A stretch of 62,699 bases of DNA, filler included, from Phoronis australis (Eukaryota; Animalia; Phoronida), in the NCBI GenBank assembly GCA_002633005.1. It is 8 parts of 8 records of this genome, joined end to end, with 100 filler letters (N's around TTAATTAATTAA, not from the genome) between each part and the next. Parts side by side here need not be neighbours in the genome. Positions count along the whole stretch, not along the records: positions 15,136 to 44,522 come from NMRA01000617.1; 7 more parts are not named here. One strand, written 5' to 3'. This document shows positions 4,088 through 37,400 of this stretch, one piece after another. A program made the position numbers and the translations under genes. How positions within the stretch are numbered: the stretch's first letter is position 1; each line of letters starts with the position of its first letter. The notes under the pieces were generated by a model that did no database searches, had not been told where the DNA came from, and worked only from the letters and a program-made list of their open reading frames with translations.

Positions 4088-4328
4088 ATTACCAATCGGT
4101 TTAAAAATCGGTTTAATGTCACTCTGCACATGTAAATATCTCCAAATTAAAACACTGAAAAAATCTTAGCGTGCAACGCTATCTTGCGATAACTTTGTTG
4201 ACGATAGTGGCATACAACCGCTTTACTTTGATGTTCATTAACTACCGAAGCCAGAATGAACGGTCAAGTTAACCGCTGTTTACGTCGACACTCCGCTCAG
4301 ACCGGAGTTAAGTCAATATGAAAGGGCC
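4088..4328 (-). mobile_element. Truncated Harbinger-like MITE (same family as 21147-21636)
   Basis: Ends GGAGTTAAGTCAATATGAAAGGGCC, the reverse complement of the left end at 21147. Confidence 0.75.
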
Positions 4329-5116: not shown

Positions 5117-5191
5117 ATTAGGCAGACATCCTAGCGAAAAATGGAACACTTCTTAAAGCACATTCAAAACTCTATCTAATGGAATACTTAA

Positions 5192-12439: not shown

Positions 12440-12470
12440 TAGAAGAGGTTTCGTTATTCCTCAAATTTAG

Positions 12471-12770
12471 TGCCTGGGAAAATAGTGTTCACAGCGGATT
12501 CTCTAAGACCAAGAACTTTGCACATTGGTGTCACTGAGTTGGATTGCAACGAAAGACATGGCAGCATTACAACGTACGAGTATATGGTCTTCAACAGAGC
12601 ATGCGCGTGTTCATCAGCACGTGTCAGTAGATCAGTTAACTTCACTGCCCTGTCCACGACAATCACAGGACTTGCTCCGAATAGTGTCTACGCTGTAAGA
12701 GTTCGAGCATACACTAGTGCCGGACCAGGTCTTTGGAGTGATGATGTAACGATAAAAACTGCAGTAGAAG
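12471..12770 (+). CDS. Fibronectin type III exon 1 of a receptor-like gene (RPTP/Tie/usherin-like)
   Basis: TTTAG acceptor, G|GTAACC donor, 300 nt, phase 1-1; NGxIxxY-like HGSITTY and GLAPNSVYAVRVRAYTSAGPGLWS. Confidence 0.9.
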
Positions 12771-13752
12771 GTAACCATATTTGATACTTCATCGCGTTTA
12801 TGTAAGCAGCAGTAGCGACTGTCGCTACCGACGGATTTAATAGCAGCGTCCAGAACTGGAATCACTTTTATCCATATCCATGAACAAAAGTATGCTTTGG
12901 TACTTAAAGACTTATCTTACAAATTCTGTCTCCCACCGCATCATCCCCAATTTCGTCCAGCTCCGTCGTTAACAAATTTACGCCCAACAACACTAGTTCA
13001 TTTTTTAGTTGCCACCGCGTCCCTCAACCTCCCAACAATGCCGCCTAACGGTACGTTTTAGCCATGCAATTCGATTGTGTGTTCTGCCTTACGACTTCGC
13101 CATCATGGAGAATTTGGTTCGTGTTTGATAGAGTAAGTTTGACATTTGCTAGTGTAGGTATGGGGGTTGGGGGGGGGCTTCGCCTCAAGCAACACCTCGA
13201 CAGGTGGGCGGTACAGCAGAAGGGGGCGGTACATGCATGGTGACGACTGGGGGAGAGGCGCGAAATTTGTCGTGGCTGGAGGTGACACAGACGGGTTCAG
13301 AAAGGAGGTAATGGCGGAGAGACAGAGCCGTTCTTCTGCCTTGACGTGCTATAATCCTAGCTACGCCATTNTCGCCTCAAGCAACACCTCGACAGGTGGG
13401 CGGTACAGCAGAAGGGGGCGGTACATGCATGGTGACGACTGGGGGAGAGGCGCGAAATTTGTCGTGGCTGGAGGTGACACAGACGGGTTCAGAAAGGAGG
13501 TAATGGCGGAGAGACAGAGCCGTTCTTCTGCCTTGACGTGCTATAATCCTAGCTACGCCATTGATCTGAGCTCATTCCATAAACAGCTCCCGGCAAAAGT
13601 CATATTAAGCACGTGATCATTGCAGCATGATACTAGCAATATAGTTGCCTAGCTGGCTTGGTTTAAATATTGGACGATTAAAATGGAATACCGTAACAAA
13701 GTCGTATATACAAGTGCAAACGCAGTCTTGAAAACGCGTACTTTCTCTTTAG

Positions 13753-14051
13753 CCCTTGGGCCGGTATCAAATCTAACCGCTGAGGAAAATGAGTCCGGGA
13801 CAACAATCACTTGGGAAGCTCCACCTGATTATGGATGTCAGCTCATTGGAATCCAATGGCGGTACCTTTTGCTACCACTTGGACAGTGTAGCTATTCTCT
13901 GGAAGAAGTACCTGCCGAGTGGAATTTCGTCGACAAGTTCACACTATTTGCGACATATTATCCCATTCGACATACATCATCTTCATTAATCCTAGCGGCA
14001 CTTCTTTATCTGGTATCGTCAAAAGTGTCAATGTTACGACGAAGCAGAGAA
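13753..14051 (+). pseudogene. Fibronectin type III exon 2 with a 1-nt frameshift
   Basis: Acceptor CTCTTTAG; N-half PVSNL..TITWEAPP and C-half LSHSTYIIFINP..VNVTT are in different frames; 299 nt instead of 300. Confidence 0.75.
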
Positions 14052-14424
14052 GTACTGACCATTTTGCTATGCGTGCATTGATGTTCGCTAATAACGTCGT
14101 ACAGGAAATCTGAAATGGACCATGTAAAGACCTCATAGTTATGTTATACATTGTTTCTTGTAAGAAAATGTTCAAGATTACCTCCCATCAAATCCCGGAC
14201 AACTGGTTGTTCTAACATCTGGCCTGGGATTGATGACATCTATGGTTAGCCAGTGGCATGTGGCGGTGCGTCTCAGTAGGGACGCGTAGGCTGTTCTGTG
14301 TCAACTCACTTCACCACCAGAAGTGGTGGATATCTACAGAACAGTAATAGGAACAATACATGATGATATTTACTGTATTCAGACGGAGAGCCTCTTACGA
14401 CCGTATTGTTGCGTTTTGTTACAG

Positions 14425-14727
14425 AGCCTTCCGGCAATATAACGTTTTCGTTGGTGTCTTCTGACGCGAGATCTCTGCAGTTGGAAGTCAGTGAACTGAG
14501 TTGTGAGGACAGGAATGGAATAATACTAAACTACGAATATTCCGTTTTCAACAACGGGTCGCAGTGTGCTTCGGCCAGCATCGATACGACGAAAAACTTC
14601 ACGGACTTATCTGTTAACATTTCTGGACTCTTTCCTCACAATTTTTACGTAGTCCGAGTTCGTGCCTACACAATCGCTGGTCACGGCCCGTGGAGCGCTG
14701 CAATGACTATTGCTACAGTAGAAGAAG
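14425..14727 (+). CDS. Fibronectin type III exon 3
   Basis: TTACAG acceptor, G|GTAAGA donor, 303 nt; CEDRNGIILNY and GLFPHNFYVVRVRAYTIAGHGPWS; paralogous to 12471-12770. Confidence 0.9.
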
Positions 14728-14972
14728 GTAAGATCCGACGTTGTTTCGGGGAAGCGATTCTAACAAATGTAAAGAAACAAAGTTGACAAGCACATCTAGA
14801 TTACAGTACTGTAAGCAAATCATTTTGCAGTTTTATTTAACACTTGTTAAGTTTGAAAAACAGCATATGATTCTTACTTTAAAGCAAGGCGTTTCATGAT
14901 TCTAGTGAACATTTCGATTGTGTTAAGGTATCCGAACATCATTAGATGCAAATTTCTTCGTCTTCTCTACAG

Positions 14973-15035: not shown

Positions 15036-16899
15036 NNNNNNNNNNNNNNNNNNNNNNNNNNNNNNNNNNNNNNNNNNNNTTAATTAATTAANNNNNNNNN
15101 NNNNNNNNNNNNNNNNNNNNNNNNNNNNNNNNNNNAACATTTGACTGCCAAGACCGCAATGGCTCACCTTTGGCCTATTTAAAGATTGAGGTCATGAATT
15201 GGAGCGTGCGCAGTATAAAAAAGTTGAGTTCACGATTTTGGGAACTGAAATAGGGACTGCTCGAAGAAAAAGTTTCATAACGGGAGTATTTGTTCAAGTT
15301 GGAAGGAATTAAACACACCGACAACCTCCTAAGGTGTTCCTCTATGCGCAAAAGGTAGTTGTAACAACGAGACTTTGATGGTTTAGTCGGTGCGAGGCAT
15401 AATTCGCCGAAAAGCTTCCGGCATACAGAGCGCTTATAGTCTCTACATCGCCTCTGCTTCGGGCCAACAGAGGCGATGGTCATTGCCTAGGGCCCAGGCA
15501 AAATTTGTCAAGGCCAGGAAGGCAAATTTAAAAAATGAACAGGGTTGTCAACAACTGATTAAACACCTCAGTAGTTTCCATTCAGAAAAATCTCGTTCTT
15601 TGCTGAGGTCCTGGGTATTATCGACATTCATCTTTGCCCCACCCCTCAGATACGATCGAAGGTTAACAGGCACTGGTTTACTGAATGTGATTGTTGAACA
15701 CCTGTGTGTGGTATTACAATAACAGCATAATACATAAATGTGACCAAGTAATAACTGTACAATGCTAAATAACTGTTCATCGAAATCAAGTAGGTGTTTC
15801 TTATGGTTTTGGTGGCCTAATATCAACAAATATGTGTTTTTGTAGTGTGAAAATCATATCATATTTTTATTGTTTTGAAATACAAATGTGTTTACTGTGA
15901 GGCCAAGACCGCGAGTTATAAAAGTGTACCGTCAGGTGGCACTGAATAGTTAGGCTGCGGTCGCGGCCAATATTTGCACTGCCAAAATGTTGAAATTTTG
16001 GGGGCATTTTGTAGGTGGGCATTGCACGTAGGCTCAGCGAACGTGGTTTGTTTGTATTTGTGAACATGCTGTGAATAAAAAAGGCCACTTTCTCGGCTGT
16101 AGCTGCACTCTTCTTCAAGATGGCGGCCCCCGGCTGCAATTGTGCATTGGGTAGCGACCGAGAAATTGGCTGTGATTTTAGGTAGCCCTCAAACAAGCAA
16201 GAATTGCCAAAAAACCAGTTGGTTGACAGTACTTTTGGACCACATTTTCGGAATCGGTAGGAAATTTGCTTTCAGACTCTAATGTTGGCTTTAGTCGTGC
16301 ATCGGCAGGGCAGTGGTGTTTTTTGGGTGAAAAGACAAAAGTGCTGATTTTTCATTTTTTGCCCTTATTTTTCTTAGTATAGCTTGGTTTTCAGTGGGAA
16401 TGAATAGGTCAAAAATTCGTGAAAGAATAAAGTTTCTGTGCTCATCTGCTGGGCTTTTTATGTGAAATAATTGAAAACATGCCATTCTTTGCATCCTGTT
16501 TTTGACAGAGTGAAGAAAAGTCTAGTTGCCAGGTCCCTATTCAGACCCCATTCAATCCTTCATATCTCTAACAAAAATGATCACACATGGATGATATATA
16601 CCTCAATCGATTTGTAATTGTTCACTCTTTACTCCCGTGCTAAAATTGTTTCGATTTAAGCTTTCATTTTCAAAAAATTTGCCCACAAACGTACTATACG
16701 TGATAGGTTATAAATCTCTCGTTAGTGTGCAGCCATCTTTCAATTCATTAGCTCTCATTACCGACATCTAGCGTTGTAAATTATAACTAAAGTACCGTAC
16801 AAACCCGGATCTCGTTTTTTCCGAGTACATGACTTCTTCATGGCGTGGGAAAATGATGTGAGTAAATAAAGTATCAGAGTTCCCACTGCGACCGAGGGA

Positions 16900-17655
16900 G
16901 TGTGTGGTGGTCACTGGAGGTGGGCCAACCGGGGAGGTTGGGGTGGTAACTCGAGGGAGGTATCCACTGGGTAGGCAACCAGTGGGGGGTGGTGGGTTTG
17001 CTACTGGAGGGGTGCGACCGGGGGGCATTGNNNNNNNNNNNNNNNNNNNNNNNNNNNNNNNNNNNNNNNNNNNNNNNNNNNNNNNNNNNNNNNNNNNNNN
17101 NNNNNNNNNNNNNNNNNNNNNNNNNNNNNNNNNNNNNNNNNNNNNNNNNNNNNNNNNNNNNNNNNNNNNNNNNNNNNNNNNNNNNNNNNNNNNNNNNNNN
17201 NNNNNNNNNNNNNNNNNNNNNNNNNNNNNNNNNNNNNNNNNNNNNNNNNNNNNNNNNNNNNNNNNNNNNNNNNNNNNNNNNNNNNNNNNNNNNNNNNNNN
17301 NNNNNNNNNNNNNNNNNNNNNNNNNNNNNNNNNNNNNNNNNNNNNNNNNNNNNNNNNNNNNNNNNNNNNNNNNNNNNNNNNNNNNNNNNNNNNNNNNNNN
17401 NNNNNNNNNNNNNNNNNNNTGCGGTTGCGGTGGTAAGTTAATTGAGGGGAGTGTCCACTGGGAAGCCAACCATTGGGTGGTGGTGGTGGGTTTGCTACTG
17501 GATTGGTGCGACTGAGGGGGTGGTCACTGGAGGGGTGCGACCGGGGGGGTGGTCACTGGAGGGGTGCGACAGGGGGGGGGTGTCCACTGGGGAGGGAACC
17601 GTTGGGTGGTGGGTTGACGTCTGGAGCAGGGCAACCGCAGGGGGTTGGGGGTAAC
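16900..17655. repeat. G-rich minisatellite of about 29 bp spanning an N gap
   Basis: Unit GGTGGTCACTGGAGGGGTGCGACCGGGGG (e.g. 17521 and 17550). Confidence 0.85.
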
Positions 17656-17674
17656 CACTCGCCGTGGACCTCAT

Positions 17675-18160
17675 GGCATAGGTGCTCCCATTTTAACATT
17701 CTCCTAGCATGAGGTGCTCCCATTTTTACGTTCTAGCATAAGGTGCTCACACTTTGACATTCTCTTAGCATACGATGCTCCCATTTTTACCATTCTAGTA
17801 TAAGGTGCTCCCAGTTTAAAGTTCTCCTAGGGTAAGGTGCTCCCATTTTTACCATTCTAGTATAAGGTGCTCCCAGTTTAAAGTTCTCCTAGGGTAAGAT
17901 GCTCCCATTTTAACATTCTCCTTGGGTAAGATGCTCCCATTTTAACATTCTTGTAGGATAATTTGCTCCCATTTTAACTCCCTCTTAGCATAAGGTGCTC
18001 TAATTTTTAGGTTGTCCTAGCAGAAGGTGCTCCCATTTTAACTCCCTCCTAGCATAAGGTGCTCCCATTTTAACTCCTTCCTAGCATAAGGTGCTCCCAG
18101 TTGAACATTCTCATTACATATAGGGGTCCCATTTTCACATTCTCATAACATAAGGTGCAT
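17675..18160. repeat. 29-32 bp tandem array, about 15 copies
   Basis: Unit AAGGTGCTCCCATTTTAACATTCTCCTAGCAT. Confidence 0.95.
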
Positions 18161-18488
18161 GGCTGAAGTTGCTCATAGAATCAAGTTGTCTTTTCATTGC
18201 ATAAGGTGCTGTACTGTTGACCTTATCATAATCATATTTGTCATTTATGGGTAGAACTTTGTTTTTGAATCTTTCATTTCAATTTTAGATATATCTCAGA
18301 TGTCTTCAGACTTTCCAAAGACATCATCGTGATGAGGAGTTTCCAATAGACTCGTTAAAGTATCCTGTGAGAAAATGAAATAATGGTATCATAAAAGGGC
18401 ACAAAAGTAATGTCAGAGACAAATATAACAGCGAACATTCTCCAAATGTTGCTGCATTCACTTGTAACAATGTTTAAGGAGAAATTAG

Positions 18489-18911
18489 ATCTCATTCAAA
18501 CAACTCCCGTTTGGTACAGCCAGTAAGGAACATGCAGGTGTCTCAAACTTGAGCACGGGGTCAAAGGAAACAATTTTGTTTGGACATTTTCAGGTCCAGT
18601 TTTCTCTCTTCCTAAATCATAGATTCCAACCTTATTCACCCGATATTTTTGTTGAACTCTGGGGAGTAACTTTTTATAGGGATTTTCTATGACCCCTGTA
18701 TGGTTGTATGCCTGCAGCATTACAAGGCGGTGTAATTGGCTATTCTTGGCCATCGAAAGTTGAATTCCAGTCCTCCAATCTATAAAACTGTAGTGAGTGT
18801 AAGCAATTCCGTGATTTTTCAATGTACTCACCTTGCTATCTAGAGATAGTTAGCATATTTGGACAGAAAATCTACCTATCAGGACTCTATGTTTTTATCA
18901 AGCGTAGCTGA
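18489..18911 (+). pseudogene. Decayed coding-like segment, possible upstream exon of the protease gene
   Basis: 140 codons in one frame with only two internal stops (18690, 18783) in AT-rich DNA: FKQLPFGTASKEHAGV..FGHFQVQF..ELWGVTFY..GVIGYSWP. Confidence 0.4.
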
Positions 18912-21146
18912 TGCATTCAAGATGTCAAGTTCTGAGTCAGAGAAATGTTCAATAACATAAATGTTTAAAGAATTAATTCAGGTGTATTTTCAAATATTAG
19001 TTAACATCAATTGTGCTGTGTATGACATAATTGTTTTATTATGTTGGTTTATCAGACAAACGCAGACAGTGAGAGAGCTGGACTGTGCAAACATTAATCG
19101 TTTACCAACTTACATCCTTTGCTATCCCAGTTGAACTGATAATGACAGTTCTGTATTCCAGCTCGCTGATCACTGAAATTGATGCTTGTTCTTTCCACAG
19201 TTATTTGCTGGTGTTTTATCAACCTTCTTGTATTTTATACTCCCTTACTTCTTTTTAAATACCCTGGGCTGGCCTTTACCCTATGCTGGCCTTTTGATGT
19301 CCTGTTTGCTTAGGATACATCTCTTACTCATTTTTCTGTTTAGCCATGTTTTTTGTTTTATTGTGTATTTCATACATTTCAGATCACTGCGTAACTGGCT
19401 TCATTTGAGCACCATGTACCTCTCTCAGTTGCAGGCAGTGTCAGATTATACCAATGTATATACTTTGTTGAGGGGGGAAGGGGTTTTTCAGCCACTGGGA
19501 GATTTTATATTCAAATTGATCTCTCATGACTGCAGGTCTCTAACTCACCAGTACCTAAATTGACCTTTGCCTCTGTTGGTTTTTTCACTGACACTGTCAT
19601 TGCATACTGGAATAAACTGCTGTTTAGTAAGAACTGACCATGATATTTTAGAAGCGGGTGAATCTCGTTCCTTTGTAAATATTTTTATTATGTGAAAAGA
19701 AACTGAAAATTTGTAAAAGATCAGAGTAAATGTTAGTACTTGATTGAGAATACTTTTGAGAATGACACATTGTCTATTTATAGTGGATATGTCAATGTTG
19801 TACACCTCTGCCGAGGTATGTTGAATTGAATTGCTAAAAAAACAATACATTTTCCATAAGAGAAGAAAAGTATTTTAAAAGTGGAACATAATCAAATAGA
19901 AAATGTGATAGCAAATAATTATGAAAATATTTTGCAAGTAAAATGTGTTAAAAATGACAGATAATTTGAGACTGAAATGGGTTTTAAAAAAAATGTGGCA
20001 TAAAACAATTTTGAAAATATTTTAAGAGTAAAAAATATTATGTCCGTTAATTTCAAAACCACAATGAACTTTCTATTAAAAACAAAACTCCTTCGCTTTT
20101 CTGTTCCATTTTTAATGATTTTGAAAATAAGAAGCAGCTGCTAACTGCCACAGGTCATCACTGATGACTTAGAGGTATTTGTGTTCTTTCACTCTCAATT
20201 ATCACTGGAATGTATGTCTGGACTGTGAACACTCATAATAGAATAATTGATAATACTGATACCAAGGAAATTGCACATAACAACAGTGATAAAAGATTAA
20301 AGTGAATTCTCAGACAGGTTAACATCAAAAATAGAACTTTTACAACACTGGTTTGAGACTACAGTGAAATGAAATATGAAAATGGACCCAGCAAATTAGC
20401 TTTTATCTTATGCCTCGTGATTGGTGGAATAATATTTTGGAATTTATTCTGATTGGTCAACTGAATTGCTACTTCATGAAAATCCAGTGTTATTACACCC
20501 ACTTTCACAAGATTCCTGGCTTGAGCAAGTAAATTTTTTACCCACTGGCAGTTTACTCCTGTTGTAATCATGACAGCACTTGCATACTCTACATTACTAA
20601 CTAGATTGTACTTGTTTTTCTCACTAAGTTGTCTAATGTAAATTGAAATTTTAAGAACATGAATCTAAGATGTTGATATGACTGAAAATTGCTTTGTTGC
20701 AGTTTCATGACACTTTAAAATTCTGAGGACATTTGTAATAAAATTTAAATTTCTAATAAATAAGAAGCATACATAAACTATTACTTGTCAGTATGTGATA
20801 ATAGTTATAATTGCTATGTACAAACATATGTATTCAAAATATTTTAATGTTCAATAAGTCTACTGTTACATGTAATACTGAATTATAAATGTGTCTTAAG
20901 CATGTAATATGTTTTTGAGCAATCTTTTAAGTGTTCTTGTTTGCAAAGTGTTCTTGTGTAATTTGGATTCAACATTCTCAAACAATTATTTTTGTAGATG
21001 AATCCGAAGAGAGACCAAAATAGTCGCACCTGGCGAAGGCTATCTGGAAGAGTTAGTATTCAGTGCAATGAGATTGTGGAATGAATTTTTTTATCATTGG
21101 ATGAAAAAATATTGGCATTCACATATAACTGAAGTTATATTGGAAA

Positions 21147-21636
21147 GGCCCTTTCATATTGACTTAACTCCAGTCTGAGCAGAGCATCGACGTAAACAGC
21201 GCAGTTAACTGGACCGTTCATACTGGCTTTGGTAGTTAATGAACATCGTGGTTAACGGTTGGTGACGCTGTCGTCATTGAAGTTATCGCATGCTAAATTA
21301 TTTTTTAATATGAAAATAAGGGAACATTTAGGTGTGCAAAATGACATTAAACTTATTTGTAAATCGATTGGTTATTATTAGAGCAAATATAAGCAGCAAT
21401 TAATGACGGCACTACCTCGTAACTTTTGACGATAACAATGGCACCTGGCGATAACTTCGATTGGTCGGAAGTTAAGCGTTCATACTGCACCGCAGCATCG
21501 ATGCTGCGCTATTAAATCCACCTGTTAACTGCGATGTTAAGTGGAGCTGTTAACTGCAATCCAGGACTGGAGTTAAACGTTCATACTTACCGCAACTCCC
21601 CAAATCATCGCCGCATCGACGTTAGAATGATAGGCC
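21147..21636. mobile_element. PIF/Harbinger-like MITE
   Basis: TIRs GGCCCTTTCAT / ATGATAGGCC; repeated GTTAAC and TTCATACT motifs. Confidence 0.75.
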
Positions 21637-22023
21637 ATTAAGTATGTGCTTTAACACCCCTGGGAGGTCAAATTGGCCAACCACAAAGTTTGGGGGTCAC
21701 CATGGTAATTAGTGAAATGCAAAGGTGCAGTGGCAATCACAGTTACAAGGTCTTAAGATTTCAATGCAGTTGGGAATGCTGCGAAACAGGTAGGCACCAT
21801 TAATGAAATTAGTTTTAATGATTGAGGAAATGGAAAAGTCCTCCGCATAAGATATTTCTAATATCATTTCTAAAATGTTTTGGTTTATTTACAATCTCTT
21901 ATTACAGGAGCATGATGTTTCGATCAGTCATCTCTCTAGGTATTTTTTACTATAATGATTTGTTCAAAAGTTGACTTTTGGGAATTGACTAATCTAATTC
22001 GAGTTTCTTATGTAAATGTTCAG

Positions 22024-25000
22024 GTCACCAAATGGCACAGATGTCATGCTGTTAAGGTTTTGGCAGTATACTTGCCTAAACCTGTCAAGGGGAAGCCATG
22101 TCCCCGGCTTCAGTTTGTTGGTACTAAGTTTGTTGTTGAATTGTCAATGTCTTCTAGAGCTTTTGACAAAGAGCATGTCTTTTGAATTCAACATGGTTAT
22201 TTTATGGTGTTCTTCTCTATACAATTAATGCACATTGTCTTATTTGGAACCCGGAAAGAGCACTGACTCAACTCTTTTCATATGCGCTGCCTCAGAAATA
22301 TACTTGGCATCTAATGGCTGCACGTCTCCAACAAAACAATTCTAACCCAGGCAGTACTGCTTAGTATGTACGCAAAGCTTGCCTAGAGGTGCCTCCACTG
22401 GGTTGGATGCATGAGGCACATCGACTATGGGAGATTACCAAAGGATATACTTTATGGAGAGCTTGCCACTGGAACCAGACATGCAAGAAGCATTATTCTT
22501 CGTTATAAAGATTTTTGCAAGTGTGAGCTGAAGACAGGGAAACCTCACCATTTCAGAATGAGAAGCTGTGGCCTCCGATCGCAGCAGTTTGAGCTCGAGT
22601 GTCAAGCTGTGCACTAAAACTAATGAGCAATGAAGAGAAGTAAAACAAGCACTACTAAAGAGCACAGGCATCAGAGGGCAGCCTCTTCTGATAGTGATCA
22701 AGACAAAGTATACCCCTGTGACACCTGCAACAGAGCATACCACTCCAGAATCGGACTTTTTAGCCACAAGCAATGCTGAAATCCAACCAATGACCAACAG
22801 AGGGTGTATATTCATTGTCTCTCGAGACAGACGGCTCACAACCATTTTAAACCTTGAAACTCACTAAAGCTATGTTGCCCTTATGAGGTTATGCACATGT
22901 AGGATAATTTGAGCCAACTTTGGAACGTCTTATCTCCGAAATCTAATTGGAAACTTTCAAATATTCTGGTTAGGCACTGTTCCAGTGTTACTTGAAAAAT
23001 AAGGCTTTTATTAGATTCAAGAAAAAATCAGAAGTATTCATAAGTAAGGAAAGAAAATGTTGAAAATAGTGTCAAGGCCTCATCTTGAATTTTGGTCATG
23101 TTCCTGATTCCGTTTTTTTTTGCTATTGGTGTACCTTTCATTTTTGCTAAATTTTACTGATTAAAAGGCATGATTTTATGACCCAATTTAAGTCAAAACT
23201 CAAATTCTGCAAACTTTAATTGTAGAGAATAATATATTCTTTTACTCTACTATCTATTACTTTCCTAGTCATTAAACTACATTAAGTCTTAAAGTCTTTG
23301 TTGATACTGAGTAAGCCTTCAAGCTTTTACCATTTGTTTATTTAGGGAGTGATTGTATGATGTGCTTAATACTCGTGATCAAAGATGCCATGAAGCAGCG
23401 TAACCTGCATTATCAACAGGCTCCAGCTAGTAAGTAACTTTTTTTCGTTTACTGGTTACTTGAAAAGTTCAACGTTAAGTGAGAACTAATCACGCTGGAA
23501 AAGCATTAAAGTGGAACTTGCAGGCTAATTCCTTGTTTCCGTGATCAACAATATGAATATGAAGTAGGTTGAAAATTACCAATTGTTTTTAAGATCTAGT
23601 TTTGTGTTCAAAATGATCTACCGTAAATCACTCAACCATGTTCAGTCAGTATTGTGACACGGTGTTGGGGAATAGCACTGCATGATGGTGGCTGTGTGAG
23701 CACCCAAGGTACATCATTTGTACAAGGGTCAACTATTTGCAAAATTGTCAGTGAATGCAACTGCATTTTGTTTAGCGTAGATGATATTGAAATAACATTG
23801 TTGTTTAGTTTCTGCTATACATTAGCATAGTTAGGAGGATAAAAAAAAGACCTTTAATCCTCGGAATACCAAAACAGACCTGGCAAATCTAAGGTTTAGG
23901 GTATTAGGAGGATGTCTTTTATAAATGTGATGTACCATGACAATCACATTTTCTTTGTTTTTCACATATTGTGAATAAGGACCACATAAAACATAGATTC
24001 ATTGACATTGGCAAGTACCGACATGTGTTACTTCTCCGTGATTGTTAGGTAATTTGTCTACATTTGTGAAAATTTATAGGCTTTCCGGATATAGAACCAT
24101 CACAAATAAACACCTGGGCTCTGGTCACACGGCGGAAGGTGGTTACTAATTTGGTGAAAGAGTATTGTAAGTTTAATTACTTGTACTTACTAACTTGTTG
24201 ATAACATATCATAAACTCTTGAAAAAATTCAGTTTACTTTGGTAGATGTTATGTTGAAATGTGAGTAAGGTAACCTTTTAACACACAGGGCACTTAGCCA
24301 ATTATCTTCAAAACTGTGGACTGTACCTAAATTGGTAAAAGTACGTGTTGCACTTTAGTAAATTGCCATTGTGCTTTTATGACTTTCAAGGTTTATTCTT
24401 TTCGTAAAATCATTTAATTCCTATTTTCGATTGCACTTCATGCAAAATTGCATTATTTTAGAAACTATTCATAACATTGTGTTTGTCAAATTTGGACATA
24501 CTAGGGTATTCAATAACCAGAGGTACGTGCATAATTATTCGCTTCATTGGCAACTATTGTAAACTTTGTCTTTCGGGTTTTATGTTGACCAAGCTTGCCA
24601 GTTCAATGCAAGCACTCTATACTGGTGCACTCATTTCAACTATTTAGGTTGAACTTTTGAAATTTCAGGTAACTGATTTGTTGCGCAGTGCTTCTTTCTG
24701 TTTGGTAGAATTTTATTATTATTTGCATTCACCTTTCTCAGCAGAGAAATCCCACTTCACATTTAAAGGCAACTGTGTTGTTACAAATTACATAAATTAT
24801 TTTCCTTATCTGTTTTCTGTTGTTGCATTCTCTTTCACAGTGAAGTGCTTGAATGGTCATGAAGTGCGTTATTGTTGGGATGAAGATAACCAATCTGGGT
24901 GGTGGCCAGAGAAAATAAAATACATGTCGCCAAATGAAAGACGAAAAGGTAGTGTATGGTATTTCACTATTTAAAGTTACTCATAAAGAATTACTTTAAC

Positions 25001-25705
25001 TCAATGCACTAAGTTTGTAATACCGGTGCAGAAGGTATTCCAAGACTTCAAGCATGAAGAGTTGTGTTTAAAGTAAATACACCTTTTAATGTGTATGATT
25101 GTATGAAATTGAGGGAGTGGACCCATTTGTTGAGGGATTTGTAAACGAAGTTTTGTGAAAGAAACAATTGCTTAGTAGTGGCTTATTCTCCAGTATGGTT
25201 GTTTATCCATTTGTTATAACCTATTCCGGAAATGCTCAGAACCATTCTGTGGAGTTATGTGGAAAGCTAGCCCTTTTTGAACTTTTTCTTTTCAAATTTG
25301 AACTTTTTGTTGAGAGTTACTCACAAAAGGCTCTCTTTTGTAGAGAATCATGTTGGAAATGGCACTATTTTGTAGAGGAACTGACTGAAAAACTCACCCT
25401 TCTGATCGATATGTCCCGTATACTTCTGCTATGGGATTGTTTGTGTACTAATGAGAGCTTTTGAAATATATACATCTATTAAAATACGCATGTCTGCTCC
25501 TGATAGCTTTGCTAAGAACCATCCATCCATCGATATCAGAACTATTTGTGTTGGTAAGTGTCAAAGTCCGTATGCACTTTCACAATTTTTGTGCTTCAGT
25601 ACTTCATGTTGAGATTTATTTTCTTTTATTTGTGTTTATATTATAGCTGACAGCTTATCTGGAGACGATCTCCTTTAAGTTGTGGTCTCATATGCAGCTT
25701 GGAAG
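22024..25705 (+). pseudogene. Phase-compatible exons encoding the C-terminal half of a first C48-like protease domain plus a PWWP/Tudor-like segment
   Basis: Exons 22024-22120, 23346-23429, 24080-24166, 24841-24948 and 25647-25705 have canonical AG/GT and matching phases; they give PCPRLQFVGSDCMMCLIL (QxxxxDC), FPDI..TRRKV and YCWDEDNQSGWWPEKI; in-frame TAA at 25676. Confidence 0.65.
22240..22840 (+). mobile_element. RTE-clade LINE 3' fragment (intronic)
   Basis: HWVGCMRHIDYGRLPKDILYGELATG..RYKD and CDTCNR..SRIGLFSH C-terminal motifs, frameshifted. Confidence 0.85.
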
Positions 25706-26471
25706 GTATTTTTTATCATTAAATGTCTGCTCATTGCTTCTTCCTGTAATATAATTACAGATGCTGTTGTTAAAATCTTGAAAAAAGCTCAAAAAGTTAT
25801 TTTTTATGACTGTACTCATATTTGCTTAAAAGGAGTACTAGTATTTTCTATTAAATAATTGCAAACTAGCTATTCTATGATACATTACCATTACCTGAAA
25901 ACATTAGATATTCTATGTTTAGAATTGTGTAGTTGGATAGAGATCGGCTGTACTTCTGTCACCTCAAAGGATATACAAATTGGAGCACTGTGTAGTAATT
26001 CTGCACTCTCAGTAATATAGCAGTTGTTTCTGAACTTCCAAATGTTAAGGATTCCTTGCTTTGACAGTCTTTGAAGTTATCCTGCCATTATATTGTATTG
26101 TATTTGCGTGATAAGTTCCCGAAATTGTGTCTTGATCTTTTGTATATTCTCCAGTTATGGTATGTGCAATAACAAGCCATTCAATATCTTTGTGATGATA
26201 ATTAGCACAAAGTGGGAAACTGAATATTCATGTATATAGATTACGCAATGTTGTTGACACAATATCATATTTTGTAGTAGTTGTAGGTGGGATTTCTCTT
26301 GGTGCCAGTCAATTTGTGACCTTGATATCATTTTCAAGGTCACTTGAGGAAATGAAGATAGTTACTCTGTGACAAGTGTAATATATTGTAACATATTGTT
26401 TTGAATTGCATTAGCTGTGTTTGAATTATTTAACCTTTTTCTTTTTGCATGATTGCATATTTAAATTTTAG

Positions 26472-29400
26472 ACATAGACAGTGTGTGGGAGGCACAAAAG
26501 TCGCCTAAATGTTACATCGCACCTGGAATTACCACAAACTCAGTGAAAGCAACTCAGAGCAATCTCCCTGATGAGGTAATTAAGAATGGCTAGACATGCT
26601 TTGCTCAGTTAAAGCCAGATAACCTGGTGTTAGGCTCTCAAATCTGCGAGACAAGACAGTCTTTTTCGAAAATTGAAGTTGGTGTATCATAAAATGAGAA
26701 TCTTTGTTCAACTTGGGTCTCGAGGACTTTCAGTTTCAACAATAGTGATTATTTTTAATCGATGTATTACAGATTGGACGCGATGCTGACCTCAATTTCA
26801 ACTGTGGCACACTATGACTCAAAATTGATTCATTTTGCATTGTTTGAAAACATGATTTAATTGGTTTGAAATAATCTGATAATAAGAGCAATGGTTGACT
26901 GTCACTCAATCAATGTTTCGCCAAGTTTTCTTTTATTGCACATATTTTATTATTACAAGTCATGTACGAAGAAAACATGAGCACAAGAAACAACACAGTC
27001 CTTAACGCAGTCATACCATACATACCTTTTCATCTGTGTTGTGTTTGGAGTTGTCTGGAAAAATGTTCTGTTAGCCAGTTTGTCCAGGAAATCTGGTATT
27101 CATCCAACTTAACATTTTTACATAAATTGCTTTCTTGGATGTAAAATTCTTTCTTCAACCATTTTAAGCATTTGAGAAAAATTTGGCATTAGCTTTATGC
27201 TGTCTCTTTCACCAATATGGAATATTTTGATTATTATAAGAAAATTAATTTAATCTTACTTGCAGGTCATAGATGCCTTGTGTTTTATGCAGTCAAACGG
27301 TAAGTCTACTTGCTTATAAATATCCAATTTTTTAATTAAAAGGATGAGCTTGATTATGACCAGGGCTTTAATTTGGTTTCGTGAAGTAATCACCATGAGT
27401 TGATTTTGGCTTCTCAGAAGGGGTGGAACAGAGCTGTGTGTCATCAAAGCAACATGATTGACGTCAGATGACTTGTTGGGGCATTTTACACCCATCATTT
27501 TTGTAGAGTTTGTAGTGAGAGTAATTTAATGATTTTGATGAAATATTCTACATCATGCTAAGAAAATGTAGATTGATCTATTCCTTCAGTATTGAGTGTT
27601 TACTGGACCACATCAAGATACATCAATTACATTTCCTTTCCAGGAATCCTTCCTGTACTTAAACTGTAGTGTCATCAAGATGCTGCTTGACGGCCACTTG
27701 CAAACAGATGTATGTAACCATTTTACTTTTCATTACTGTTGTTTGCAATCAATGAGACAATATGTTTTCATTCCAGTCACATTATTTATGACTAAAAATT
27801 GTATGTTTTTTTAATATGATGTTCAATTATAGTTAAAGTTCATTTTCAAGAATGCTAGCTTCTATTTACTATCTTACAGGTTCATTTCGATGGAAAGGAT
27901 GCACTCTCTGTATACAGTGAAAATGGTCTTCATTGGGTTGTGGTGGTAATTTGTTATTAAAGGCAAAGGCAACCTTTTTCATGTCATTGTTAGCAAAAAA
28001 TAAGGTCCGTAGATTATCTCAGACATATTTTTCACTTAATTACAAGTTTTCGTAATTAAATTAATTACTCATCCTCTTCTCAGGAAGTGACATTTTGGGA
28101 GACAAGAATTTCGCGCCAGTTTGGTTCTGCGTTGAGTTTGACTACCTCGCCACATACCTGGCACCTTCTAAGTAACTCCAATACTTTAGACAAGTCCACA
28201 ATAAACTTATCAAAGTGTGGCTCACCAATCTGTTCATTGGACGACAAACTGTCCTCTTCACTGGTGTCAAACTGGGTCTGTATTCACTCCCTCTACTCAA
28301 CATTGCTGCAAGGCTGCTTACAAGCTCTGGGCTAGACACAATAGCCCAGGGCGAATCACTGCTAGTTCTGGGAATTGCACGCTCTGGGAAACGTTCGGAG
28401 GCACGTGATAGTAAATGAAGTGCCTCCAGTGAGTGTAGTGGCCACTGCTCACGAGGCTTCTTGCTTCAAAAATGCACTTCTCTGGGATGGTGACGGGGCA
28501 CTGACGGGAATCAATTGCATAGGTATGGCACCATTCTTCTGGCGTTGTTTCGCAGGGACCTTCATAAATTCAGCATACACATGTCTCTCGTAATCTGACG
28601 GCAGGAAATGCTTGCCAAACACTCGGTAACCCTCCAATGCTTTGTACATTGCGTGGACGTTTAATGCTGCGTTCTTCAAGTACGAGCCAAGTACTACGAA
28701 GTGTGTCATACTTCGGAAAGCGATGCAAAGGTTCTCCCCAAGTGTGCAATATGATAGTGAGTACATCCTGATATGCAGAAATAATGTGGCATGTTGACTG
28801 ACTCGTAAACAAAAGCAAACAACGACCGAACTTATCACAACGGAGGCAGAACAATGACTGACTTGACAGATTACACACTAGTTAGACTATATGAAAAGAA
28901 ATTATTGCAAAATTCTTGCCTCTCAAGACATCACTTCTCGAGTAGAGGACGAGTAACTAATTAAATTACGAAAAGCTGTAATAAAGTGAGAAATAGGTCA
29001 GGGATAGTCAATAAACCTATTTTTTGCTGAAGATGAGAAGAAAAAAGGTTGCCTTTGCCTTTAAGATACTTCTTTGTTTTATTAAATTTTTGGAAAACAC
29101 GTTTTTAGAGTCACTCCTTGTGGTTGTTTTCTGACCAATTACAAGATCGCAAGAAAACACATAGATTTGTTTTTTTCATGATTTAAAAATGCAAGGCAAG
29201 TGTTTTTGCCTCTGCAGTCAATAAGGTGATACTTCAGTATACATTTGTTCCATTTTCATTTCAATTTTTTTCTGTTTTGCAGAATTGACATTATGGTTTC
29301 ATCTGTTTTTCCGAATGTTTCAGCTCATCAGTTTTAGACGGAAAAAGCTAATCATCTTGGATCCTCTGGGTGAGACGCAAGGTTTCCTAGACAGGATTTT

Positions 29401-30621
29401 GAAGAAATGGAAGTAAGCATTTTTGTGATTTAGAAAAATCTTCATTACGTTAGACTTATGTTAATTTTATTGCATACCTTTTACTTAGAAATTTGCTTAA
29501 CATAATGTGAACCTCAAGACTTTGATACTCAGATTATCGTATATTCTGTTGTATAAGACATTCATGCTTGCCTGCCTGGTAAATTTTTTTGTAACTTGTA
29601 CTTTTAGTACATCTTATGAATTTGGTTTGTTTTTAGAAACTACTACCGTAATTGTTCGGGTTAACGCCCTGGGCGGTTAAATTGGCAAACCCAAAAAATC
29701 GGGGGTGGGCGGTTAACCAGACATAGGCGCTTAAACGTGAAATTTCAAGAAATCCAGGGTGGGCGGTTAACCGAACATGGGCGCTTATTACGACAGGCAA
29801 CCGCCCTGGGCGGTTAATTTTACCTCGTACTCGGAACGCGTGGTACTTTTCAAAGAGCGTTATCGTCACGTAGCCACATGACGAGAAAAATGTCATAACA
29901 GCGGATGATCCCAACAAAGATTCTCTTGCCCTCAGATTAGTTTTTATTGTTAAATTTACAGAATTACTGAGTAATAGCCCCGTGGCGTCCTGCGGTCTTG
30001 TTACTTTGCCCTCTAGAGCGCAGACGACCAGTGACCACGCAGCCTCTACTTGGATTGCAACTATTTTAAGATGTGACCTTGTTAAAGTGCGCGCGTGCAA
30101 GCTTCACGTGTTGCAGAGGTCACAGCAGACATCAAATTTATGGTTGCAGTCTCGTACTGAGCTGCCAAGTTCATAGTCTGAGAGCAGTTTTAAAATGAGT
30201 TGTAATAAAAGTTTGAAAAACTTAATTCAGATGTTTTTTGTGTTTAGGATGTTTATAGTCGACACTCTGNATTTTGAAGACGTGGAAGTAAGCATTTTTG
30301 TGATTTAGAAAAATCTTCATTACGCTAGACTTATGTTAATTTTATTGCATACCTTTTACTTAGAAATTTGCTTAACATAATGTGAACGTCAAGACTTTGA
30401 TACTCAGATTATCGTATATTCTGTTGTATTAGACATTCATGCTTGCCTGCATGCCTGGTAAATTTTTTCGTAACTCGTACTTTTAGTACATCTTATGAAT
30501 TTGGTTTGTTTTTAGAAACTTCTATCTTGGACTCTTGGGACATTCTGGGCGCTGGACAGTTTGCTCCCGTCCTCATGCGAAACAACTGGACAGTAATTCA
30601 TGCGGCGTGTTTTGCTTGGAG
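26472..30621 (+). pseudogene. Multi-exon Ulp1/SENP (peptidase C48) catalytic domain
   Basis: Exons 26472-26575 (..NLPDE), 27266-27299 (VIDAL), 27644-27709 (ESFLYLN), 27880-27945 (NGLHWVVV), 29324-29412 (LIILDPLG), 30516-30621 (KQLDSNSCGVFCLE), all AG/GT; His-Asp-Gln-Cys in C48 order; one phase mismatch after 27299; degenerate candidate last exon from 31277. Confidence 0.85.
27961..29060 (-). mobile_element. Kolobok-type element with THAP remnant, in an intron of the protease gene
   Basis: TTAA TSD at 27957-27960 and 29061-29064; about 150-bp imperfect TIRs starting AGGCAAAGGCAACCTTTTT; minus-strand RVFGKHFLPSDYER..KNGAIP. Confidence 0.88.
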
Positions 30622-32739
30622 GTATGACTACTTAGTACCAATTTCTCAGTGTAATGGGAAGTAAACCAGGGCCGGTCTCTAATCTTTGAAATCGAAACTA
30701 TTTTTGGCAATTTCTCTGCTCCTTTTGTGCAAACTTACAATAATTGGTTATCAGACTGTGCTCGAATACATTATAGTTTATGCATAGGAGTTTCTAGTTC
30801 AAGTTTGCCCTTGAAGACCCTTATATTCGTGCTACAAACTTGAGTAAAAACTCGAAATTTCGAGTTCAAACTCGAACTTATTGCTTTAATATTGGGTTTA
30901 CAAACTGTGAACTAAGGGCAATAAATCATCTGTGTAAGTTATTGTGTACTCGAGCATAGAATAATAGACACTTATCTTGAGTTCGCCCAAAAGTAGAGTA
31001 GAAAATGCCAAACCTAATTTCGAGTTCCATTTCGAGTAAATAGGAATACTGCTACGATATCTTATCTCGAGTTCATTGTATCTGAGTATGCCCGAACTCA
31101 ACCCTCGGTCTCGTTAGTACATTCCCAAATGAAATGAATGCTCATAGGCTATGACAGTAGTATTCCTATTTATGTCTGATAACCTATATTTATGGTATAA
31201 ATGAAAGTGCGCGACATCAAATGCAAGTGTGGACATTTGGTGTGACTTGTTTCGCAAGTAAAAAGGCAAATTTTAGTTTGTTAAAGAGGAAACTTCGCCT
31301 TTTTGCCAGAAACTCCTGTTTAGGCGGACCTAACAGAGTACTGAGCAAACTTTAAGTAGGAAAATATTTAATTAAATAATCTAACAAGAACTTGTGTCCA
31401 ATGCCTTTAAGTGAAAGTTCCTGTGTAGGTAAGACTGTGGATGCAATTAGTGTGCAGCAAGTCATGGCCCAACAACTAAGTGCAAATGAAGAGATTGACC
31501 AGTTCACAGTTCAGGCTGCTAATCCATTTAATGCTGAAGCAAATCGGATTGCAATGAAAGGAGTAAGTAACTGCATGAAGGATATCATTTATTATTGCCA
31601 TGGATGGCTTCGTAAAGCTGGTCTGTGTTTTCACTCCAGTTGGTGAAAACGAGTTTCATGCCTGTTCAGTCCGATTATCAAATTATAATATTCCGTGTAT
31701 GACTGATACTAATTTAAAGAGCGACTGATACTAATTTAAAGAGCGGCGTGGAGCAGCTGAATAGGAGCACGAATACACATAGTATCATTGATACCGCGTG
31801 TTCTATTAACTCTAGTTTTGTCATCAAAAATAACGCATAATGATTGGCTACTGAGGTTTCTCGTAAGTTGATAGAAAAAGTCAGAGCGGAAGCGGACGTC
31901 TCTACATAAAACAACTAGTTGCAAATTGTGTCCAGGCACCTCTGTGACAATCGGAGTATCCGAAACAACTAAGACAATAGTCTCTGTGGTTTTGTGACTA
32001 TGAATATATCAATATTTTTTCTGAAAGAATTCCAAGGACAGAGTTTCTTTTGAAGATCATTGTCCGGATTTCGCAGCCAGCAGTAAGAGTTTCTTGCATC
32101 ACACCACCTAAATTGTGGTTTTTACCAGTACACATAAAGTGAATNTCTTTCCGTGAGTTGTGAGATTTCTTCAAAATACGAGAGCTTCCTACCTTAAGAG
32201 AATTTGGAGGGTTGGCAAAACCATTTTCACATTTGCCTGGCCTGATTTTTTCGAATACATATTTTATCTAGTGCACTGCAAACCGAAACTCAGTGCGGCA
32301 GACAAAGTCGCTGAAAGCGGAGATTTTGACGCCGGCGCCGTTCTTAAACTTTGTAAACATGGGAAGAAAATAAAGTGACAAAAACGTTAAAGTATTATAT
32401 TTTGAAGTGAGTCCATGACCCAAGACAAGAACTCCTTACTTGTATTGTAATTCACATTGCTAAACCATCGTCTTGAAGGCCCGGCGTTGTTACGCTCATT
32501 GTGATCATCGATCTTTTTGTAAAAGTCGGGGAATCACCGTTTCCTTAGCACTGGGCGCTAAATCTTCATTCTTTAAAAGTCAGGGATGGGCTCTTAACCG
32601 AGAGGTGGGCGCTTAACTGGAAATCTTCAAAAATCGCAGGGGGGCGCTTAACTGAGCAGTGGGCGGTTAAATCGAAAATCCACCTAAAGTAGGGGGTGGG
32701 CGGTTAACTGAGCATGGGCGTTAACCCGAACGATTACGG
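29646..32739. mobile_element. Tc1/pogo-like element inserted in one allele of the catalytic-Cys exon; arms 29646-30269 and 32147-32739
   Basis: TA TSD at 29644-45 and 32740-41; TIR CCGTAAT(T/C)GTTCGGGTTAACGCCC; the flanks rejoin to give the exon seen intact at 30516. Confidence 0.85.
30670..31040 (+). mobile_element. Harbinger-like MITE copy lacking the right TIR
   Basis: Near-identical to 40076-40476 and 61672-62076. Confidence 0.85.
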
Positions 32740-33870
32740 TATCTCGGACTCTTAGGACATTCTGGGCGCTGGACTGATACTAATTTAAAGAGCGACTGAT
32801 ACTAATTTAAAGAGCGGCGTGGAGCAGCTGAATAGGAGCACGAATACACATAGTATCGTTGATACGGCGTGTTCTATTAACTCTAGTTTTGTCATCAAAA
32901 ATAACGCATAATGATTGGCTACTGAGGTTTCTCGTAAGTTGATAGAAAAAGTCAGAGCGGAAGCGGACGTCTCTACATAAAACAACTAGTTGCAAATTGT
33001 GTCCAGTAACCTCTGTGACAATCGGAGTATCCGAAACAACTAAGACAATAGTCTCTGTGGTTTTGTGACTATGAATATATCAATGTTTTTTCTGAAAGAA
33101 TTCCAAGGACAGAGTTTCTTTTGAAGATCATTGTCCGGATTTCGCAGCCAGCAGCAAGAGTTTCTTGCATCACACCACCTAAATTGTGGTTTTTACCAGT
33201 ACACATAAAGTGAATTTTGTAAATGTGCTCTANCAATATTTTTTCTGAAAGAATTCCAAGGACAGAGTTTCTTTTGAAGATCATTGTCCGGATTTCGCAG
33301 CCAGCAGTACGAGTTTCTTGCATCACACCACCTAAATTGTGGTTTTTACCAGTACACATAAAGTGAATTTTGTAAATGTGCTCTACAGCCAAAAACGTCA
33401 AATACATACATTTAAATGCCTAACGTGTGCAAACGTGTCCAGGCCTATTAAGGGACCCTTACTCGTTAAATTGTAGTGTTGAAACACTAAGTACACAGAT
33501 TTCTGGTGGTGTCCTCCCCGAGGTTTGCCCCACAAGCAGTACGCCCATGAAAGTGCGAAATTGTCGACGACCACGGTAAGGAAGAGGTGGGCATATGGAG
33601 AATCTGAAATTTGGTTCCACGATTGGAGCAAAATTTTGGCAAAGTCGAATACTGTAAGTGCCCCCCTCCCATATTTTTTATCTTCCCTCTGGCCGGCAGC
33701 GTGATGTTGTCACCCCTTTCACAACAAAAAGCTTTATAAAGTTGAGATGTGCGCTAAGCAAAAAAAATGTGTGCCTGCGGGCATTGGGTTGAATTCAAAG
33801 TCACCATGTTCTCAATGTGACAACAACTGACCAAATCAGTTTGGGATGACATCCATTACGCGAATAGTAT

Positions 33871-36804: not shown

Positions 36805-37400
36805 ATTATTATTTTCTTTTTTATGTATTTATTATCATTTACAAACAATTACAAAAACAAATAAACAAATAAGTACACCATTCATTCACGCATGCACACC
36901 TCAGGAAGACCATTCTCATATCTCGTTTAAAGTAAATATCTTCTACATGAAGTTAACATGAACAATAAATTTTTCCCATTTTGCAGAGAAGCTGTCATGT
37001 ACAAAGTTTTTATGTGCATTTAATTTTTCAGCATTATAGTATTCATAAGTTTTTGTAACGAACTTGAGAAAATTGGGTATATTTTTGTGACATCTCTCTT
37101 TGTAAATGTACTGTTTAGCTAGTAGAAGCAAAATGTTAAATAGAAAATCATGCGTCCTGTAAAGTCCAAGAATAACAATATCGTAAGACAGACAGTTGGG
37201 AAGCTGAATGCCACACTTTTGAAGTAGCTTTCCGAATTCCTTCCAGAAATCTTGTACAAAGCTAAATTCCCAAAAAAGGTGTGACAGCGTCTCTGGAGCT
37301 TTATTACAAAAGGAACATAGATCAGAATCCCTAACACATATTTTGACTAAAAGGTATTTGTTGCAATAACTCTATGTAGTATTCTAAATTAGTTTCCTCT
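36805..37400 (-). mobile_element. Tx1/L1-clade LINE 3' fragment
   Basis: LLLAKQYIYKERC..PNF..F..KW C-terminus, preceded by a C..C..HLFWEFS..FW zinc-knuckle remnant; A-rich tail. Confidence 0.8.

What the first reader, a model, noticed from the sequence alone, without database searches (positions are those of the whole stretch)
21908..31340. Hidden short-exon gene with tandem Ulp1/SENP-like protease domains around a PWWP/Tudor-like module
Seen: at least 11 exons of 34-108 nt with canonical splice sites, mostly invisible to the ORF track. Spliced, the downstream set gives LPDE|VID, HWVVV, ILDPLG and QLDSNSCGVF. The upstream phase-matched set gives a second QxxxxDC motif (LQFVGSDC), a C48-like terminal helix and YCW..GWWPEKI. 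Established: His-Asp-Gln-Cys in this order defines C48 deSUMOylases, and PWWP/Tudor domains read chromatin. Inference: a two-protease plus chromatin-reader architecture unlike host SENPs, possibly an anti-silencing factor of a mobile element. The His and Asp exons of the first domain were not confidently found.
Basis: partly seen in the sequence, partly recalled or inferred. Interest (0 to 1): 0.85.

Follow-up and report, generated by a model that had tools for sequence, protein, structure and literature searches.

The report
Broken transposon-type SUMO-protease gene
These eleven small exons are real and form a broken gene, likely the tail of a jumping DNA element, ending in a SUMO-type protease domain of a kind already known from such elements; the claimed second protease and chromatin-reading domain are only weak resemblances.

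Summary
The eleven exons (34-108 nt, 22024-30621, + strand) are real: all have AG/GT ends and three junctions are seen spliced in RNA. The last six encode a Ulp1/C48 protease domain with His, Asp, Gln and Cys at standard spacing (26 and 65 bits on two home-built profiles; 0 of 2000 shuffles reach either). Its relatives, and three intron positions, are those of the Ulp1 modules of Ginger- and Mutator-type DNA transposases, where Ulp1 plus a PHD reader is already published. This copy is broken: 3 of 10 junctions are out of phase, from breaks in two exons. No transposase or terminal repeats were found. The 'first protease' is weak: one profile gives 6.7 bits (2 of 2000 shuffles), the other nothing; no His or Asp exon exists, Met follows the Cys, and the Gln exon has no reads. 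The PWWP call rests on one WWP motif with no Pfam hit. None of 39 homologues shows two C48 domains or PWWP/Tudor. This scan has noted similar spliced transposon Ulp1 genes in other genomes. Verdict: new member of a known kind, with an unidentified upstream module.

The parts
22024..22120 (+). Exon A1 (97 nt), ends LQFV-G; carries the Gln of the weak 'first domain' motif
   Evidence: AG/GT, open frame phase 0>1; no RNA depth in bin 22100-22309
23346..23429 (+). Exon A2 (84 nt), SDCMMCLIL...; resembles the C48 catalytic-Cys helix, or a CxxC metal site
   Evidence: donor seen spliced to 24080 in 4 reads; best of 319 upstream stop-free segments on the viral C48 profile, 7.0 bits
24080..24166 (+). 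Exon A3 (87 nt), likely helical
   Evidence: both junctions seen in RNA, 4 reads each
24841..24948 (+). Exon A4 (108 nt), YCW-x7-WWPEKI, PWWP/Tudor-like motif, unproven
   Evidence: acceptor seen in RNA; no PWWP/Tudor hit in Pfam or PDB
25647..25705 (+). Exon A5 (59 nt), carries a frame break; linker between the two sets
   Evidence: in-frame stop in the incoming frame, both junctions out of phase; low sense depth in one run
26472..26575 (+). Exon B1 (104 nt), start of C48 domain, ends LPDE
   Evidence: sense reads 28-86 deep, nearly all with three fixed differences, so from another copy or allele; one RNA-type contig lies exactly on it
27266..27299 (+). Exon B2 (34 nt), VIDA..., frameshifted in this copy
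   Evidence: ends phase 1 before a phase-0 exon; a 5-base insertion at 27278 in 3 of 3 reads of one run, 0 of 2 of another
27644..27709 (+). Exon B3 (66 nt)
   Evidence: strong splice sites, phase 0>0; no RNA joint listed
27880..27945 (+). Exon B4 (66 nt), catalytic His codon at 27931
   Evidence: donor position after H-x4 shared with L023, L028, L030
29324..29412 (+). Exon B5 (89 nt), catalytic Asp codon at 29360
   Evidence: spliced to 30516 in RNA; His-to-Asp 17 residues
30516..30621 (+). Exon B6 (106 nt), Gln codon 30583, catalytic Cys codon 30601
   Evidence: RNA joint; donor after CGVFxxx shared with L021, L023, L028, L030, L031, L034
31464..31562 (+). Possible last C48 helix exon (tentative; good donor, no canonical acceptor at the expected place)
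   Evidence: top of 959 downstream 30-residue windows on the transposon-type profile by a thin margin (76.3 vs 75.7 bits), not on the viral profile
19784..20174 (+). Two possible earlier micro-exons (19784-19815, 20154-20174); tentative
   Evidence: AG/GT and compatible phase only; no homology found
27957..29064 (.). Inverted-repeat element inserted in intron B4-B5
   Evidence: arms 27957-28114 / 28907-29064, 80%; very high DNA depth
29644..30262 (.). Left part of a second inverted-repeat element; its other end lies at 32716-32741, and it splits a second copy of exon B6 (29637-29645 + 32740-32774) at a TA
   Evidence: a DNA contig skips it (joint 29588>30477)
30271..30524 (.). Duplicate of 29396-29645 beyond a single N; likely two haplotypes or copies merged in the assembly
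   Evidence: 95% over 254 nt; same pattern at 31701-32144 / 32772-33215
30665..31043 (.). High-copy palindromic short element just after exon B6
   Evidence: copies at 40069 and 61665

Best explanation
This is a frameshifted multi-exon gene whose last six exons encode a Ulp1/C48 protease domain, likely the decayed 3' part of a Ginger- or Mutator-type DNA transposon gene that has lost or never locally carried its transposase. In intact members of the family the domain would cleave SUMO or another ubiquitin-like tag from proteins at the element or its insertion site (inferred from the family; substrate untested), which could ease silencing or repair. The upstream five exons are a real, low-level spliced part of probably the same transcript and encode an unidentified module of about 150 residues, perhaps a decayed protease-like helix plus a small beta-barrel. 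This copy cannot make a full protein; the abundant transcripts come from other copies that lack the His exon.
For: Shown: catalytic residues and spacing, His-Asp 17 as in 31 of 31 measurable reference domains (45 examined), Asp-Gln 40 within 36-47. Profile of 6 viral Ulp1 found with a generic motif: 26.3 bits; profile of 39 transposon-type domains: 65.4 bits; 0 of 2000 shuffles reach either; all 8 members of the reference alignment hit Pfam Peptidase_C48. Homologues: 39 proteins, 35 with C48 among precomputed domains, 8 also with an rve integrase, 12 with PHD; nearest by tree P0042 (hydrozoan integrase + C48) and L028 (SWIM + C48 + PHD contig). Shared intron positions. Breaks. DNA contigs over exons B1 and B5/B6 have depth 77 and 86 against 5-22 for neighbouring contigs, suggesting several copies. 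Published: Ulp1, with PHD in one family, at the C-terminus of intron-bearing Ginger1 and of Mutator transposases (PMC2836005).
Against: No transposase exon found by tblastn with 39 homologues, no terminal inverted repeats or Ginger-type ends, no PHD after the protease. The transposon-type profile is partly circular: its members were found with a motif and an alignment that included two window exons. The tree grouping has 88/89 support on long branches and holds no host SENP. Contig depth is not a copy number. No genome was available.
Confidence: 0.7

Rival explanations
1. One reading: intact relatives encode two working C48 proteases around a PWWP/Tudor reader and act as an anti-silencing factor.
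For: QxxGxDC arises in 44 of 100000 shuffles and W-x7-WWP in 28 of 100000 (motifs chosen after the fact); 6.7 bits on the viral profile, 2 of 2000 shuffles; sense reads cover exons of both sets at low depth in one run; Ulp1-bearing anti-silencing genes exist in plant Mutator elements (PMC13317346, passages).
Against: -0.6 bits on the transposon-type profile, 319 of 2000 shuffles; no His or Asp exon among 319 segments; Met after the Cys where 8 of 8 references have Gly; intron positions differ from the downstream domain; no PWWP/Tudor hit; 0 of 39 homologues with two C48 or with PWWP/Tudor.
Confidence: 0.12
2. A host gene tamed from a transposon (like Gin-1/Gin-2), of which this is a broken allele or pseudogene copy.
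For: Many introns, no terminal repeats or transposase; sense, spliced transcripts; host genes derived from Ginger1 keep its introns (PMC2836005).
Against: Frameshifts, several nested insertions and apparent multi-copy segments; the abundant transcript joins exon B5 from a foreign exon with stops in the protease frame (table 7); no conserved homologue of the upstream exons anywhere searched.
Confidence: 0.13
3. The upstream set is not protease- or PWWP-like at all: a metal-binding (HxCH, CxxC) or other cargo module, or a separate gene fragment that only lies next to the protease exons.
For: CxxC in exon A2; no database hit; no RNA joint across 24948-26472; frame break in the linking exon.
Against: One frame break suffices to read both sets as one chain; same strand and similar low depth in one run.
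Confidence: 0.4

Closest known systems
Ginger1 transposases with C-terminal Ulp1 (+PHD), Bao, Kapitonov & Jurka 2010 (PMC2836005); fish integrase-C48-PHD proteins such as P0025, P0032; hydrozoan P0042
   Same: Transposon-type C48 with HW..DPLGE..HxKQxDxxSCGVF; about 40% identity over the 70-residue catalytic core; introns; shared intron positions with fish-like contigs L021, L030
   Different: No integrase, no TGT-ended inverted repeats or CCGG target duplication found, no PHD; 10 or more introns against 0-4 in the published families; an unidentified module precedes the protease
Mutator/MULE transposases with SWIM, Ulp1 and PHD (hydra, lancelet, plants per PMC2836005; contig L028 here)
   Same: Multi-exon C48 with three intron positions in common with L028; neighbour in the tree
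   Different: No MULE transposase, SWIM or PHD exon found in the window
Kaonashi/VANC-Ulp1 genes of Arabidopsis Vandal elements (PMC13317346, passages)
   Same: Ulp1 domain in a separate, non-transposase gene of a DNA transposon; precedent for an anti-silencing role
   Different: Plant elements with a VANC domain; nothing VANC-like tested or seen here; the review says the Ulp1 domain's own function is unknown
Host Ulp1/SENP deSUMOylases (Pfam PF02902)
   Same: Same catalytic set and spacing
   Different: Signature QxDxxSCGVF rather than QxNGxDCG; frameshifted; no host SENP was placed in the tree, so the separation is by motif and profile only

Membership tests
Peptidase C48 (downstream exons) | His-Asp-(Gln)-Cys in order with family spacing | tested here: met
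   17, 40 and 6 residues
Peptidase C48 (downstream exons) | Significant match to a C48 profile | tested here: met
   26.3 and 65.4 bits on home-built profiles, 0 of 2000 shuffles; Pfam itself gave no hit on single exons and could not be run on the spliced product
Peptidase C48 (downstream exons) | Continuous reading frame through the domain | tested here: not met
   phase break at 27299>27644
Peptidase C48 (downstream exons) | Clan-CE fold; cleavage of SUMO/NEDD8/ubiquitin | not testable with these tools
   spliced products cannot be handed to the folding tool; no assay
Peptidase C48 (upstream exons) | Catalytic His and Asp before the Gln/Cys | tested here: not met
   none found in 319 stop-free segments of 15800-26470
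Peptidase C48 (upstream exons) | Cys-Gly at the nucleophile | tested here: not met
   Cys-Met; Gly in 8 of 8 references and 38 of 45 by a crude pattern, Met in none
Peptidase C48 (upstream exons) | Profile match | tested here: inconclusive
   6.7 bits, 2 of 2000 shuffles on one profile; -0.6 bits, 319 of 2000 on the other
PWWP / Tudor (Royal family) | PWWP motif and profile match | tested here: inconclusive
   GWWP with recalled W-x7-WWP-x2-I spacing present; no Pfam or PDB hit on the single exon or its open frame; no reference set could be fetched
PWWP / Tudor (Royal family) | Five-stranded barrel with aromatic cage (PMC11910589, passages) | not testable with these tools
   no fold; by recalled consensus the aromatic before the motif is Ser here, so a full cage is doubtful
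Ginger1 transposons | Gypsy-like integrase N-terminal to Ulp1 | tested here: not met
   no hit in the window from integrase-bearing homologues
Ginger1 transposons | 40-270 bp inverted repeats, TGTNR ends, CCGG/CCGT duplication | tested here: not met
   no pair around the gene
Ginger1 transposons | C-terminal Ulp1 domain of the transposon type | tested here: met
Mutator/MULE transposons | MULE transposase with SWIM; terminal repeats | tested here: not met
   L028 frames give no hit except the C48 exon; no repeats
Host SENP subfamilies | Nests in a host SENP clade; conserved orthologues | not tested
   no host SENP sequences were in hand for the tree

The most novel reading that the evidence does not exclude
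An undescribed family of invertebrate DNA transposons carries an accessory gene that sandwiches a PWWP/Tudor-like chromatin reader between a divergent (perhaps catalytically dead, substrate-binding) C48 domain and an active C48 protease, an animal counterpart of plant VANC-Ulp1 anti-silencing genes that would strip SUMO from silencing proteins on the element's own chromatin.
Probability: 0.15. Interest if true: 0.65.

Novelty: new member of a known kind. Interest (0 to 1): 0.3.

Why it matters
Ulp1 domains recur in Ginger, Mutator, Crypton and other DNA transposons and their role is still untested (PMC2836005; PMC3212892 and PMC13317346 passages), while SUMO is needed for piRNA-guided transposon silencing in flies (bioRxiv 2021.07.27.453956, abstract). 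This locus adds one more, broken, example and evidence that an intron-bearing protease module is shared between integrase-type and Mutator-type elements. It would matter more only if intact copies confirm the upstream module as a reader or second protease.

Tried and rejected
No whole genome held. Single-exon searches found nothing: Pfam on 11 window exons or exon candidates, protein database with two exons, HMMER library with exon A4 (3 hits, unrelated repeat proteins, two of them Cna_B), PDB, viral and metagenome contigs with exon A4. These are short queries, so the blanks are weak. No RNA holder was listed by the run index; the RNA evidence comes from laying raw reads. A motif scan for PWWP references gave 5 chance matches, so no PWWP profile could be built. 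The Atlas could not read window exons; the homologue P0042 returned only C48 clusters. Zisupton/KDZ, my first guess, rests on recall: the paper is not held, 'Zisupton'+'Ulp1' gave 0 papers and no homologue showed KDZ domains. Searches for the proposed architecture in print: 'transposon, Ulp1, C48, PWWP' 0 papers; 'transposase, SUMO protease, PWWP, Tudor, Mutator' (4 of 5 terms) 2 papers, unrelated by listing. Passages of PMC6431247, PMC3706591, PMC12062965, PMC12730594, PMC9297572 held nothing on Ulp1. A viral origin was considered: the viral C48 set scores lower and falls apart from the window in the tree, but viral contigs could not be scanned with the protease alignment. A papain-like reading of the upstream set (Cys in A2, His in A4) was considered from recalled patterns and not tested. 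Exon 21908-21939 was rejected as an in-frame partner of 22024.
Full report
Setting. The window is animal DNA with short exons, many repeats and assembly gaps; no whole genome is held. Four DNA runs and four RNA-type runs of one organism were listed; I laid five of the eight (X1, X5-X8). X1 may be the sample the window came from, and X5-X7 are one study.

Observation. Seven of the 10 junctions join stop-free frames; both junctions of 25647-25705 and the junction 27299>27644 do not. So the gene as assembled has two frame breaks, one in each of those exons. For the second, 3 of 3 reads of X7 carry a 5-base insertion at 27278 (0 of 2 in X5), which means other copies or alleles differ there. RNA shows three GT..AG joints: 23429>24080 and 24166>24841 (4 reads each, X5 only) and 29412>30516 (69, 63, 88 reads, plus an in-frame variant with 12, 6, 114), all from the + strand if the libraries follow the usual convention. 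No joint was listed for the other seven junctions (listing needs 3 reads and the table was cut). Intron bins 24200-24829 and 25040-25459 are empty in X5 while the exon bins are not, which fits one weak transcript through exon A5, but the link between the two sets is inferred.

Downstream domain. Single exons hit nothing. I fetched independent C48 references by motif scans, confirmed 8 of 8 aligned ones as Pfam Peptidase_C48, and used a small alignment to fetch 39 homologues. Spliced inside a script with X at the break, exons B1-B6 score 26.3 bits on a profile of six viral Ulp1 domains and 65.4 bits on a profile of the 39 homologues; 0 of 2000 shuffles reach either. The second profile is partly circular because two window exons were in the query. 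His (27931), Asp (29360), Gln (30583) and Cys (30601) are spaced 17, 40 and 6, against 17 in 31 of 31 measurable references and 36-47. The domain is therefore a C48 member by sequence; fold and activity are untested.

Which C48. The homologues are mostly fish proteins, 8 of 39 with an rve integrase and 12 with PHD in their precomputed domains, plus a hydrozoan integrase-C48 protein, P0042. That is the Ginger architecture of PMC2836005 (parts 1-3 of 5 read), which also lists Ulp1 in Mutator elements of hydra, lancelet and plants. Contig L028 holds SWIM, C48 and PHD exons. The donor after CGVFxxx is shared with 6 of the 8 plausible metagenome C48 loci examined (L021, L023, L028, L030, L031, L034; not L019, L033), the donor four residues after the His with L023, L028 and L030, and the phase-0 intron before V/I-I/L-D/x with L028 and L031. 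A tree of 25 domains (14 of the 39 homologues, 7 viral, 3 metagenome, the window) groups the window with L028 and P0042 at 88/89, on long branches and without host SENPs: suggestive, not proof. No transposase, SWIM or PHD exon and no terminal repeats were found, so membership of Ginger1 or MULE is not met for this locus; it carries their module. DNA contigs over B1 and B5/B6 have depth 77 and 86 where neighbouring contigs have 5-22, which hints at several partial copies. The abundant transcripts differ from the window at three fixed sites in B1, leave B4 nearly uncovered in two of three runs, and in X7 241 reads enter B5 from an exon that is not in the window and has stops in the protease frame; they would not make the enzyme.

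Upstream set. Exons A1-A4 read as 126 residues. They score 6.7 bits on the viral profile (2 of 2000 shuffles) over the QxxGxDC helix and -0.6 on the transposon profile (319 of 2000). No His or Asp exon turned up among 319 segments of 15800-26470, Met follows the Cys where 8 of 8 references have Gly, the Gln sits in an exon whose end has no reads, and the intron positions differ from the downstream domain, so this is not a recent duplicate. The WWP motif has PWWP-like spacing by my recall and is rare in shuffles (28 of 100000, chosen after the fact), but Pfam, PDB and the 1.8-billion-protein library give nothing and no reference set could be built. None of the 39 homologues has two C48 domains or a PWWP/Tudor family; they were found through the protease core only, so this is a modest test. 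The spliced product could not be folded or run through HHpred, which leaves both calls open rather than refuted.

Mechanism. Shown: a spliced, broken gene ending in a C48 domain of the transposon type. Inferred: origin as the 3' part or accessory gene of a Ginger- or Mutator-like element; in intact copies the protease would remove SUMO or another ubiquitin-like tag near the element. A link to silencing is plausible from SUMO-dependent piRNA silencing (bioRxiv 2021.07.27.453956, abstract only) and Ulp1-bearing VANC genes (PMC13317346, passages), and a repair role is what PMC2836005 suggests; neither is tested. Capture of readers, mostly PHD and Chromo, by transposons is also published (bioRxiv 2021.11.30.470311, section 10), as is C48 in Cryptons (PMC3212892, passages). 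I read no supplements.

Novelty. Five earlier notes of this scan hold the words Ulp1, SENP, C48, transposon and exon; none holds tandem, PWWP and Tudor with them and none matches this DNA. Two literature searches for the architecture found nothing relevant. The solid part is a new member of a known kind; the unusual part is unproven. Interest 0.3.

Noticed in passing
L028:212-10463 (- strand): 12-kb metagenome contig with a multi-exon Mutator-like gene: CDFH-type transposase exon (label recalled), SWIM (Pfam E 2.6e-5), C48 exons and PHD; shares three intron positions with the window's protease.
   Followed up: partly
P0042 residues ~610-850: Between the integrase and the C48 domain this hydrozoan protein has NTCPLD...HYSAI...YYDG, which by recall looks like a USP/papain-type peptidase; no Pfam hit. 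If real, one transposase would carry two different ubiquitin-like proteases.
   Followed up: no
L016:427-1344 and 1380-2315: A 154-kb viral contig carries two adjacent, closely related Ulp1-like genes.
   Followed up: partly
window 29322 (loose ends): 241 RNA reads of one run splice into exon B5 from an exon absent from the window, ending a different reading frame within B5: a copy of the element seems to serve as 3' exons of another transcript.
   Followed up: partly
window 13179-13562, 29396-30524, 31701-33215, 33081-33387: Near-perfect duplications that straddle single N letters; probably assembly joins of two haplotypes.
   Followed up: partly
window 2078-3208 (+): 376-aa intronless ORF with an endonuclease/exonuclease/phosphatase domain (Pfam E 9.7e-6) and a coiled tail, in a region with three-copy dispersed motifs (921-7414); no reverse transcriptase follows.
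   Followed up: no
window 16110-16180 and 16880-18158: GC-rich start-like stretch (ATG at 16119) followed by GC-rich repeats, a gap and a 32-nt tandem array of 15 copies; could be the 5' region of the element. DNA depth of 18400-20600 is also raised (38-88).
   Followed up: partly
window 12443-14786 (+), 53987-54307 (+), 36943-37371 (-): Fibronectin type III exons, a potassium-channel pore exon and the zinc-binding end of a LINE.
   Followed up: no
window 21170-21640, 22240-22845, 23500-23840: Further repeats inside introns of the gene, seen as depth peaks of divergent reads.
   Followed up: no
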